Source: Monocercomonoides exilis PA203
Taxonomy: Eukaryota; Protista; Preaxostyla
NCBI GenBank assembly: GCA_001643675.2
Contig: LSRY02000053.1
Location: 434,001 to 498,000 of the forward strand
DNA: 64,000 nucleotides
Direction of reading: 5' to 3'
This document shows positions 15,768-18,863 of this stretch, one piece after another. How positions within the stretch are numbered: position 1 is the first letter of the stretch; every line of letters starts with the position of its first letter. The notes beneath the pieces are model-generated. The model was not told where the DNA came from and did no database searches. It was given only the letters and a program-made list of their open reading frames with translations. The position numbers and the translations under genes were made by a program.

Positions 15768-17037
15768 ATGTTTGCACATTCATTTTTCAGCTTATTTTAT
15801 TTTATTTTCACAAAACAGGCAAAATTCTCAATCACAAGAAGCCAAGCAAAGCTTTTCACAGGCTGGAGAGAATATGAAAGAAGGAATGCAGCACCTTGGA
15901 TCGGCAGCAAAAAGCCAATCAAAAGAGATGGCTCAAAACGCAAAGGAAGGAATGCAGCGTGGTGCTCAAGTCGTAGGAGACAAGATGCAAAACGTTGGAG
16001 CTGCGGTGAAAGAAAAAACAGTAGAAGTCGCACACAATGCTAAAGAAGGGATGCAACGCGGAGCTCACGTGATGGGAGATAAGATGCAATCAGTTGGAGA
16101 AAAAGTTAAAGAAAAAACAGCAGAAGTTGCCCATAATGCAAAGGAGGGAATACAACATGGAGCTCACGTGATGGGAGAAAAAATGCAAAATGCTGGAGTT
16201 GCAATGAAAGAAAAAACAGTCGAAGTAGCCCACAATGCAAAGGAGGGAATACAACATGGGGCTCATGTTATGAAAGAGAAAATGCAAAATGCTGGAGAAA
16301 TCATGAAAGAGAAAGGAAGTCAAGCGAAGGAAGTTGTTAGTTCAAAGGCAAACGATATGAAGGAAGGGATGATGGAGGGAGTTGAGAAGATGAAAGAAAA
16401 ATCAAATGACATGACCGAAAATACTGAAGAAGTTAGCGAAGAAATGAAAGATGATACTCAAAGTGGATTTGGAAAAATGAAAGAGAAAATGGGTGAAATA
16501 ACTGACAAAATTCGTACAAAGATTGATGAGATGTCAGGAAGTTTGCAAGATGGATGGGAAAGCTTGAAAAAGAAAATGACCACAAAGAGTAATAAAACTG
16601 ATGAGGATGAAGAAGAAATGAAAGATAGAGAGGACATCAAAGAAAGAATAATGGAAGAAGCTGGCATTCATCCAAATGACGGAGATGAAGTGAAAGAGAA
16701 AGTTATAGAAATGAAAGATCAATTGAAAGATGAGCTGAAAGAAGGAATTAACTCATTGAAAAAGAGAAGCGCACAAGCTCACAAAGCCGAGCAACAAGAA
16801 GAGCGTGAGGTTGAACGCGCAAGAGATAATGCTCGCAGGGATTCTGAGCAACTCGAAGAAGCTCTTCAAGAAGAAATTGAAAAAAGAAGGCAACACAGTC
16901 GTTCAAATTCCACAGTCGAATCTCAACAACACGAGGTGAGCCCGGATGATTCAGTCCTCCAACAGAAAGTTCATCATGCAAAAGAACAAGCACAAAACGA
17001 AGCAAAGCCAAGCGGATGGGAAGGAATTGGCCACTAA
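15768..17037 (+). CDS. Hydrophilic LEA group 3-like protein with 33-aa (3x11) tandem repeats
   Basis: About four copies of NAKEG(M/I)Q(R/H)GAHVMG(D/E)KMQNxGxxxKEKTxEVAH (99-bp period); the protein is K/E/A/M/Q-rich and lacks Cys. Proposed start AT(15768-15769) | GT-AG intron 15770..15818 | G(15819), giving MQNSQSQEAK. Stop TAA at 17037. Confidence 0.8.
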
Positions 17038-17281
17038 TTTTTTTAATGCTTTTTTTTTAATTGGATGTAAAATAATGTTTTTTTTTCCTGTTATATAAGA
17101 AACATGATAGACATTCATTTTAATATTTTTATTTGTATATTTCTTTAAGAGCACACGCTTATTCAAAAGTTGAACATAAGCAAGTGAATTATTCATACAA
17201 TAACTGGGCTAAGATCAAATTATTTGTAGATATTTTATTGTCCAACTATTTGGGCTTATTATATCACGATATCAAAGAATC

Positions 17282-18863
17282 ATGTTTGCATTTTATTAAT
17301 TGATGTATTTATTTTTATAAAATTGTTGTAACTTTTCTTTTTGTTGAAAACAGGAGTTACATTAGTAACTCAAGTACAAGCATCCCTCCCGGCCTTTTGC
17401 AAACAAAACCTCCTCCTTCTTTTGCTCCAGATATTATCTCATCCACTTCAAAGGCTTCTGAAGACGATGCTTCTTTCAATTTTGAAAGAAAGCCTCGATT
17501 GGAGGATTTTACATTTTTGCAAGTTCTCGGTGCTGGTACGTTTGGAACCGTACAAATTGCACAGCACATAGAAACAAAACAATATTTTGCTATAAAAACA
17601 TTGAAGAAAGAGCGAGTAATTGCTCTTCGGCAAGCTCAACACATCAAAAATGAAAGAGACATATTATATAGATGTAGACATCCTCGAATAGTGAAATTGT
17701 TTGAAACGATGCAAGACGATGAAAATCTCTATCTTATTTTAGAGTATTGTCCCGGAGGCGATTTTTTCACTGTGAGACAACAATTTGATCATTTAAAGCC
17801 ATCTGTTTGTAGATATTACGCAGCACAAATGGTAACTGCTCTCGAAAGATTGCATAAAGAGCACGTTGCATATCGTGATTTAAAGCCAGAAAATGTTCTT
17901 CTCGATGCAGACGGACAGTTGAAACTGACAGATTTAGGATTTGCAAAAGAGATCAGAGATTTGACTTTCACTTTGTGCGGGACTCCGGTGTGAATTTGAA
18001 TGTAGCTTCCAAAGGACATCAATCTTAATTTCTATTTTTTTCATTTTTGAAATTAAAAACAAATTTTCTTTCTGAAAACGAAAAATTTCAAAACACATCA
18101 CATAGGATTACATTGCACCTGAGCTTGTTCTTGGAAAGGGACATGATATAGGGGTTGATTATTGGGCGCTTGGGGTATTCATTTATGAGATGATGATAGG
18201 AATTGTATGCATTTACTTCATTTCCGTTTTATTCTGTCCAATTTGTGGTTCTTTTTCATCTTTATCAATTTTCATTTCTTTCATCTCTTCCCTTTTCTCT
18301 TCCCTTTTTTTCTTATTTTTTTTCTTACAACAAAATACATGGTGATTGTTTCATTACTTCACTTTCATTAAACTTGTAATTTAACGAAAATTTATTTTTA
18401 TTTGTTCTTTGCAATTACACTGCCAATGCATCAGCCGCCTTTTTATTCTGATTCCCTTCTGACCACATACGATGCAATTGTGCGGTTTAAGCCTCCGACC
18501 CGCGGGCTCTTTGAGCGGCACAGCGGCGACACCGATGAAGAGGCGAGGCTGCGTGTTGAAGGGAAGAATTTGATTGTGGACTTGATGAAGAAAGATAAGA
18601 CTAAGCGGCTGGGCTGCCTGAAGGGTGGGATTGCAGATATTAAGAATCACCCGTTTTTCCTGGGGATTGACTGGCACCGCATTGAGAACGGACTCGATCC
18701 TGCGCCTATCAAGCCGCACATCATTCCTCCTGAGAAGATCCCGCCTTATTCGCCCGACCAGTCGCTGGAGGCTGAGTTGGAAGCATATCACGACGAGAGC
18801 GATGGGAAGACAAAGAAGTTTGTTGATCCGGACAGAGACCCAGCCAACTTTGCTGATTTTTGA
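17282..18863 (+). CDS. cAMP-dependent protein kinase catalytic subunit-like AGC kinase
   Basis: [27 protein letters not shown], activation loop [24 protein letters not shown]...IKNHPFF and C-terminal FADF (FxxF as in PKA-C). GT-AG introns 17284..17353 (inside the ATG), 17988..18105 and 18205..18434 all join in frame. Confidence 0.93.

What the first reader, a model, noticed from the sequence alone, without database searches (positions are those of the whole stretch)
15768..17354. Two adjacent unrelated genes each appear to have the start codon split by an intron (AT|G)
Seen: the LEA-like gene reads AT|GTTTGCAC...AAAACAG|G CAA AAT (49-nt intron) and the kinase reads AT|GTTTGCAT...AAAACAG|G AGT TAC (70-nt intron). 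In both, splicing rebuilds an ATG in frame with the long ORF. The kinase has no other in-frame ATG before its glycine-rich loop. Because the intron starts with G, the unspliced RNA also has ATG at that spot but yields a dead-end product (MFAFY* for the kinase; an out-of-frame 91-aa ORF for the LEA gene). Known start-codon introns typically follow the ATG in phase 0, so phase-2 splitting in two neighbours is unexpected. Inference: a lineage-level bias or a splicing-gated translation switch.
Basis: partly seen in the sequence, partly recalled or inferred. Interest (0 to 1): 0.7.

Follow-up and report, generated by a model that had tools for sequence, protein, structure and literature searches.

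The report
Intron-split start codons in oxymonad neighbours
In the mitochondrion-less protist Monocercomonoides exilis, a protein kinase gene gets its ATG start codon only after an ordinary intron is spliced out (seen in RNA and already in the public protein record), and the gene next door likely does the same; this is a known, uncommon gene layout, and nothing here shows it is a regulatory switch.

Summary
The sequence observation is correct. The window is Monocercomonoides exilis: the kinase is MONOS_8435. Its 70-nt AT|G intron is spliced in an RNA contig in 1 of 4 runs; the other 3 begin downstream. My four-exon model equals the 387-aa NCBI protein, so the public record already uses the split start; an older model began at Met120. 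The LEA-like 49-nt intron has no RNA cover. It is likely (about 0.75): consensus donor, best acceptor, coding-like sequence before Met19; but a stronger donor at 15592 would make it a plain 5'UTR intron. The dead-end ATG in unspliced RNA follows automatically from AT plus GT and is no sign of a switch. Split start codons are known (PMC1626468; Yarrowia has 47 A|TG genes, PMC2911113), and this scan met them in other genomes. Two neighbours would be rare at uniform intron density (0.011 pairs per genome) but expected at a Yarrowia-like rate (0.89). A genome-wide count could not be run. Verdict: real, mostly known, low interest; one cheap open question.

The parts
15768..15769 (+). AT of the predicted split start codon, LEA-like gene (coding part of exon 1)
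   Evidence: sequence; in-frame TAA directly upstream at 15765; no RNA cover
15770..15818 (+). predicted 49-nt GT-AG intron, donor GTTTGC, acceptor AAAACAG
   Evidence: donor score 7.3 within the training range 4.7-9.6, best acceptor nearby 10.4; non-coding composition, -12.8 bits; not seen in RNA
15819..17037 (+). exon 2 of the LEA-like gene; 406 aa if the split ATG is used, 388 aa from Met19 (15874); 99-nt (33-aa) repeat at 15940-16298
   Evidence: RNA contigs cover the 3' part only; Pfam hits below curated cut-offs, no LEA family hit
15768..16043 (+). 91-aa out-of-frame ORF in the unspliced LEA-like RNA; overlaps Met19
15592..15599 (+). rival upstream donor GTGTGAAT (227-nt intron to the same acceptor; would give no ATG, start at Met19)
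   Evidence: donor score 9.6; no RNA evidence either way
17236..17283 (+). kinase exon 1 as far as an RNA contig reaches: 46 nt of 5'UTR plus AT
   Evidence: joint side 48 nt in X3; no ATG inside
17284..17353 (+). 70-nt GT-AG intron splitting the kinase start codon AT|G
   Evidence: joint 17283^17354 in 1 of 4 runs; spliced model equals NCBI protein KAH7816671.1
17282..17299 (+). MFAFY-stop mini-ORF in the unspliced kinase RNA
17354..17987 (+). kinase exon 2
17988..18105 (+). kinase intron 2 (118 nt)
   Evidence: joint in 4 of 4 runs
18106..18204 (+). kinase exon 3
18205..18434 (+). kinase intron 3 (230 nt)
   Evidence: joint in 4 of 4 runs
18435..18863 (+). kinase exon 4 to the stop codon; whole gene = MONOS_8435, 387-aa PKA-like AGC kinase

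Best explanation
The Monocercomonoides exilis kinase gene MONOS_8435 has an ordinary GT-AG intron between the T and G of its start codon, removed by splicing, and the neighbouring LEA-like gene likely has one too; both are likely constitutive first introns that happen to fall inside the ATG in a genome whose introns likely crowd near gene starts. Shown: kinase splicing, the rebuilt ATG as the only Met before the glycine-rich loop, and agreement with the public protein. Inferred: LEA splicing, initiation at the rebuilt ATG, constitutive (unregulated) splicing, and start-proximal crowding. Unspliced molecules would give dead-end peptides and would probably be removed by nonsense-mediated decay, as for any frame-breaking 5' intron.
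For: Joint 17283^17354 GT..AG in X3. Model identical to the NCBI 387-aa protein and to the sequence in Treitli 2021 supplementary file 4, row 338. Both donors (GTTTGC) fit the consensus of 10 other RNA-supported introns (G at +5 in 10 of 10, T at +4 in 9 of 10); the same GTTTGCA donor opens the RNA-supported intron 48226-48383. A third gene in the window has its RNA-supported first intron 7 nt after the A of its ATG (48987-49063, 3 of 4 runs). LEA codons 2-19 look coding (+9.0 bits; 0.55% of 2000 non-coding pieces reach this) and have no other ATG source. A Yarrowia-like rate (47 of 6449 genes) gives 0.89 adjacent pairs per genome. Bin depths leave no room for a contig inside the kinase first intron.
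Against: The kinase joint rests on one contig of one run of one study. The LEA junction has no RNA cover, and a higher-scoring donor lies at 15592 (9.6 against 7.3). The coding-like signal before Met19 is mostly composition (7.4 and 6.8 bits in the other two frames), and the reference distributions came from the training pieces without cross-validation. At the published uniform density (0.8 introns per kb) only 0.011 adjacent pairs per genome are expected, so some enrichment is needed, and it is not shown to be the ordinary kind. In the 11 RNA-supported introns G follows the acceptor in only 2, so a proto-splice-site preference does not explain AT|G here.
Confidence: 0.68

Rival explanations
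1. M. exilis has a lineage-specific excess of AT|G introns (phase 2 in codon 1) beyond general 5' crowding, for example from one-base sliding of ATG| introns or from 5'UTR introns whose AT-rich exon end plus a following G created a new upstream start.
For: Two neighbours share the layout, with the same first 7 and last 7 intron bases; uniform expectation is 0.011 pairs per genome. A window scan found 3 AT|G candidates with ORFs of 60 codons or more and 0 A|TG.
Against: The window was picked for this pair, so its counts are biased; the third AT|G candidate (9280, 67 aa) has no support; GTTTGCA is a common donor here; the two introns do not align as copies of one element. Only one of the two is confirmed.
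Confidence: 0.15
2. Only the kinase has a split start. The LEA-like gene starts at Met19 (15874), with a 5'UTR intron from the 15592 donor, or with a transcript that begins after 15770.
For: Donor 15592 scores 9.6; Met19 is in frame; 5'UTR introns are common in this genome (552 reported); no RNA over the junction.
Against: The 54 nt before Met19 have 41% GC and coding-like composition; the mean 5'UTR is 62 bp, which would place most starts downstream of 15592; the Met19, Met23 and Met37 versions are not in the protein collection by exact look-up (weak, since no model of this gene was found at all).
Confidence: 0.2
3. The introns are a regulated switch: retention under some condition diverts ribosomes to MFAFY-stop or to the 91-aa out-of-frame ORF and shuts the genes off.
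For: The unspliced RNAs do carry dead-end ORFs, and the LEA one overlaps Met19. An engineered AU|G split gates expression in plants (PMC12363958). UPF1 is reported in the oxymonad Streblomastix.
Against: The unspliced ATG is unavoidable for any AT|GT junction; premature stops are the norm for retained introns; donors are consensus, not weak; folding z-scores -0.49 and -0.86; Yarrowia start-codon introns are among the most efficiently spliced.
Confidence: 0.05

Closest known systems
Introns disrupting the start codon (phase 1 or 2 in codon 1), Nielsen and Wernersson 2006, PMC1626468 (parts 1-4 of 6 read)
   Same: Canonical GT-AG intron inside the initiator codon; the ATG of the main frame exists only after splicing.
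   Different: They describe these as relatively rare in vertebrates, arthropods, fungi and plants and did not cover oxymonads; here two may be neighbours.
Yarrowia lipolytica start-codon introns: 47 genes with a one-base first coding exon (Mekouar 2010, PMC2911113, passages read); 42 introns after A, T or G of the start codon, 10.2-fold enrichment in the first 10 nt (PMC13309789, passages read)
   Same: Split initiator codons at a rate high enough to give neighbours by chance; retention gives premature stops.
   Different: The Yarrowia count is for A|TG; the M. exilis cases are AT|G; Yarrowia is intron-poor, M. exilis has 1.9 introns per gene.
Phase 0 'start codon introns' (ATG|), Nielsen and Wernersson 2006; Spironucleus vortens Rps4 (PMC6679479, passages read)
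   Same: First intron at the very start of the coding sequence.
   Different: One base further on; the ATG stays whole on exon 1; enriched in ribosomal proteins, which these two genes are not.
Public model of MONOS_8435 (KAH7816671.1, XP_067720529.1; Treitli 2021, PMC8767320, passages and supplementary file 4 searched)
   Same: 387-aa protein identical to the model spliced through AT|G.
   Different: I saw the protein only, not the exon coordinates; the passages found with 'start codon' and 'intron' do not mention split start codons. The older EukProt model begins at Met120 (268 aa).

Membership tests
Major (U2-type) spliceosomal intron | GT...AG ends with the organism's donor consensus | tested here: met
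   Both read GTTTGC...ACAG; donor score 7.3 in a training range of 4.7-9.6 from 10 RNA-supported introns.
Major (U2-type) spliceosomal intron | Removed from the RNA (kinase intron 17284-17353) | tested here: met
   Joint 17283^17354 in 1 of 4 runs.
Major (U2-type) spliceosomal intron | Removed from the RNA (LEA-like intron 15770-15818) | tested here: inconclusive
   No contig covers 15520-15885 in 4 of 4 runs.
Major (U2-type) spliceosomal intron | Branch point and lariat | not tested
   No branch-point analysis was made.
Start-codon-disrupting intron (phase 2, codon 1) | Intron lies after the second base of the initiator ATG of the main ORF (kinase) | tested here: met
   First ATG of the spliced contig-supported RNA, only Met before residue 120, equals the public protein.
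Start-codon-disrupting intron (phase 2, codon 1) | Same, LEA-like gene | tested here: inconclusive
   Supported by splice scores and composition, rival donor and Met19 exist.
Start-codon-disrupting intron (phase 2, codon 1) | Ribosomes initiate at the rebuilt ATG | not testable with these tools
   Needs ribosome profiling or N-terminal proteomics.
Phase 0 start codon intron (ATG|) | Intron between codons 1 and 2 | tested here: not met
   The one-base shift gives T...GG ends; the RNA joint reads GT..AG at AT|G.
Regulated intron-retention switch | Condition-dependent retention | not testable with these tools
   Only assembled contigs of one study were available; they drop rare forms.
Regulated intron-retention switch | Weak splice site or stable structure that could gate splicing | tested here: not met
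   Consensus donors; folding z -0.49 and -0.86. The kinase acceptor scores 5.6, below the training range of 7.5-13.8, but is used.
PKA-like AGC kinase catalytic subunit | Kinase domain closest to PKA catalytic subunits | tested here: met
   Pfam PF00069 E 2.4e-44; best PDB matches are PKA catalytic subunits, E 2.8e-45; NCBI name 'putative AGC/PKA protein kinase'.
Group 3 LEA protein | Match to an LEA Pfam family | tested here: not met
   Only Apolipoprotein and YtxH, both below curated cut-offs.
Group 3 LEA protein | Tandem 11-residue repeats (feature recalled, not from a call) | tested here: inconclusive
   99-nt period, 3.6 copies = 33 aa, a multiple of 11; motif not examined.

The most novel reading that the evidence does not exclude
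Oxymonads place introns inside the start codon, specifically AT|G, in hundreds of genes, far more than at A|TG, ATG| or the next codons, so that translation of a whole class of genes depends on splicing to exist at all; this would reverse the phase 0 rule described for animals, fungi and plants.
Probability: 0.12. Interest if true: 0.5.

Novelty: already known. Interest (0 to 1): 0.17.

Why it matters
Practically, split ATGs defeat gene finders: the older public model of this kinase started at Met120 and lacked the ATP-binding glycine-rich loop, so other M. exilis models may still be truncated. Scientifically it matters only if a genome-wide count shows an AT|G excess, which would say something about how introns slide or are gained at gene starts in a lineage with many lineage-specific introns. 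As it stands it is a correct reading of a known layout.

Tried and rejected
No whole genome is held, so the genome-wide count was impossible. RNA contigs do not cover the LEA-like 5' end; this is absence of cover, not evidence against splicing. No public model of the LEA-like protein was found: 2 weak unrelated hits among 7994 candidates scored, lengths 222-709 only; 0 of 8 exact look-ups were in the collection; two short motifs were not in the Treitli 2021 supplements; the Atlas gave no answer. The first kinase homologue search (lengths 372-2000) found none of 129 candidates because the cluster representative is 268 aa. A metagenome scan gave 9 loci at 25-36% identity, too distant to compare first introns; not used further. 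The closest paralogue (MONOS_4031, 56% over 357 columns) aligns only from residue 41, so the start position cannot be compared. Common origin of the two introns as copies of a mobile element: rejected, no coherent alignment. Structured RNA gate: rejected. An AT|G-like match at 14244 (minus) lies in a decayed transposase-like stretch and stops after 36 codons: taken as chance. Literature: searches (and 13) listed no paper on split start codons in oxymonads; the library lacks most subscription papers, and the supplement of Karnkowska 2019 could not be read and may bear on intron positions. The scan's own notes hold nothing for this genome, for oxymonad words or for this sequence.

Full report
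Observation. At 15768 the sequence reads AT, a 49-nt GT-AG stretch (15770-15818), then G CAA AAT; joining gives a 406-residue ORF ending at 17037. At 17282 it reads AT, a 70-nt GT-AG stretch (17284-17353), then G AGT TAC. Unspliced, the first ATG opens a 91-residue out-of-frame ORF and the second gives MFAFY-stop. In the whole window 571 ATGT sites occur, 43 with a GTNTG donor; of 16 donor/acceptor combinations that rebuild an ATG, only these two open more than 46 codons. So the pattern is not a trivial chance match.

Organism and genes. No genome was held. A search with the last kinase exon gave one 100% match among 729 candidates: EukProt MONOS_8435 of Monocercomonoides exilis, 268 aa. Its cluster has 2 members; the other is the 387-aa NCBI protein KAH7816671.1 / XP_067720529.1, 'putative AGC/PKA protein kinase'. 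My four-exon model is identical to the 387-aa protein, and the 268-aa protein is the same model from Met120. The 387-aa sequence also stands in supplementary file 4 of Treitli 2021 (PMC8767320, row 338). I saw protein sequences, not exon coordinates, but an N-terminus Met-Ser-Tyr-Ile can be read from this DNA only through the AT|G splice. The kinase is closest to PKA catalytic subunits among solved structures. The upstream gene is LEA-like only descriptively: a 33-residue repeat, no LEA Pfam hit, no public model found.

RNA evidence. Four RNA runs of one study, kept as contigs, hold the stretch. The joint 17283^17354 with GT..AG ends appears in 1 of 4 runs (X3, one contig, depth 29, 48 nt on the 5' side); the listed kinase contigs of the other three begin at 17390, 17536 and 17661, downstream of the junction. 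The 48 nt hold no ATG before 17282. Kinase introns 2 and 3 are joined in 4 of 4 runs. Bin depth at 16984-17349 in X1, X2 and X4 is fully accounted for by the LEA 3' contigs, leaving no contig in the first intron; contigs drop rare forms, so this is weak. The LEA 5' end (15520-15885) has no cover in any run, so its junction is untested.

Is the LEA intron real? From I took 11 joints with GT or GC...AG ends, leaving out the repeat-driven joints, which lack such ends. In the 10 other than the kinase first intron, the donor is G-T-N-T-G (G at +5 in 10 of 10, T at +4 in 9 of 10). The LEA donor scores 7.3 (training 4.7-9.6), the same as the confirmed kinase donor; its acceptor is the best nearby (10.4). 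The 54 nt before Met19 score +9.0 bits as coding, reached by 0.55% of 2000 non-coding pieces, while the candidate intron scores -12.8. Against: the signal is largely composition (7.4 and 6.8 in the other frames), the reference pieces came from the training sets, and a better donor (9.6) at 15592 would give a 227-nt 5'UTR intron and a start at Met19. I put the split start at about 0.75.

Is the pairing surprising? At the published 0.8 introns per kb of coding sequence (PMC6759080, section 7 read) about 13 of 16,768 genes would have an AT|G intron and 0.011 adjacent pairs are expected. At 5-fold enrichment it is 0.27, at the Yarrowia A|TG rate (47 of 6449 genes; PMC2911113, passages read) 0.89, at 10-fold 1.07. 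So if both introns are real, start-proximal enrichment is likely, but no more than is already known in a yeast (10.2-fold in the first 10 nt; PMC13309789, passages read). Local signs of such crowding: a third gene (ATG at 49070, minus strand) has its first intron after 7 coding bases, joined in 3 of 4 runs, and the 552 reported 5'UTR introns in 5279 UTRs of mean 62 bp work out by my arithmetic to about 1.7 per kb. Other first introns read by eye lie 34-60 nt in. A scan for consensus donors at the start codon with ORFs of 60 codons or more listed 3 AT|G (these two and an unsupported 67-codon one at 9280), 0 A|TG and 3 ATG|, the last all at first donors of genes with an upstream ATG. The window was chosen for the pair, so these counts cannot give a rate. 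A proto-splice-site preference does not help: G follows the acceptor in only 2 of 11 introns.

Mechanism. Most likely the spliceosome treats these as ordinary first introns; splicing joins AT to G, and the ribosome starts there because it is the first ATG of the message (shown for the contig-supported kinase RNA; initiation itself inferred). Retention giving a premature stop is the default (82% of ORF introns; up to 93%, both Yarrowia). Donors are consensus, and neither intron folds better than shuffles (z -0.49, -0.86). The two introns do not align as copies of one element. How the layout arose (one-base sliding from ATG|, or a new upstream ATG made across a 5'UTR intron) is my speculation and untested; the closest paralogue aligns only from residue 41.

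Comparison with what is known. [quoted passage not shown] An engineered AU|G split is used to gate expression in plants (PMC12363958, two passages). Oxymonad introns are reported as canonical (PMC1501061 passages; PMC6759080); the passages I found do not mention split start codons, and my ten searches listed no such paper for oxymonads, within a library that lacks most subscription journals. The scan's own notes list 11 findings with these words in at least 6 genomes; 5 of the 8 shown concern split start codons, 3 of them judged ordinary and already annotated (AI notes, not checked here except the two literature leads).

Verdict. Observation confirmed; kinase case real and already in the public record; LEA case likely; lineage bias open but cheap to test from the public annotation; regulated switch unsupported. 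Novelty: already known. Interest 0.17; novel reading probability 0.12, interest 0.5 if true.

Noticed in passing
window 17282-18863 (+): The older EukProt model of MONOS_8435 (268 aa) starts at Met120 and lacks the glycine-rich loop; the NCBI model (387 aa) is complete. Split starts may have truncated other models.
   Followed up: yes
window 17354-17987 (+): The kinase has DLG where most kinases have DFG (DFG recalled); the M. exilis paralogue MONOS_4031 also has DLG.
   Followed up: no
window 47316-49110 (-): Expressed multi-exon gene with ATG at 49070, first intron after 7 coding bases, and a GC-AG intron at 48516-48574 joined in 4 of 4 runs. Not identified.
   Followed up: partly
window 29516 and 27091-29526 (-): An ATG at 29516 lies one base out of frame with the 812-codon ORF, next to A and T runs: a possible assembly slip or a short upstream ORF; the version from the first in-frame Met is not in the protein collection.
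   Followed up: partly
window 4500-6030 (+), 7600-9050 (-), 32000-33450 (+), 36120-37540 (+), 50930-52330 (-): Five copies of one two-intron gene family, some apparently decayed; intron 51686-51751 is joined in 3 of 4 runs. Family not searched.
   Followed up: no
window 13200-14250 (-): Transposase-like reading frame broken by stops, judged by eye; not searched.
   Followed up: no
window 60400-64000 (+): Retroelement-like frames (reverse transcriptase, RNase H and recombinase-like by eye), broken and almost without RNA contigs; not searched.
   Followed up: no
window 20792-26044 (-): Large expressed gene with a predicted signal peptide on a 60-nt first exon, a predicted 50-nt first intron with the same GTTTGCAC donor as the LEA-like gene, an RNA-supported 70-nt second intron and a C-terminal hydrophobic stretch; no Pfam hit for the 1513-aa part.
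   Followed up: partly
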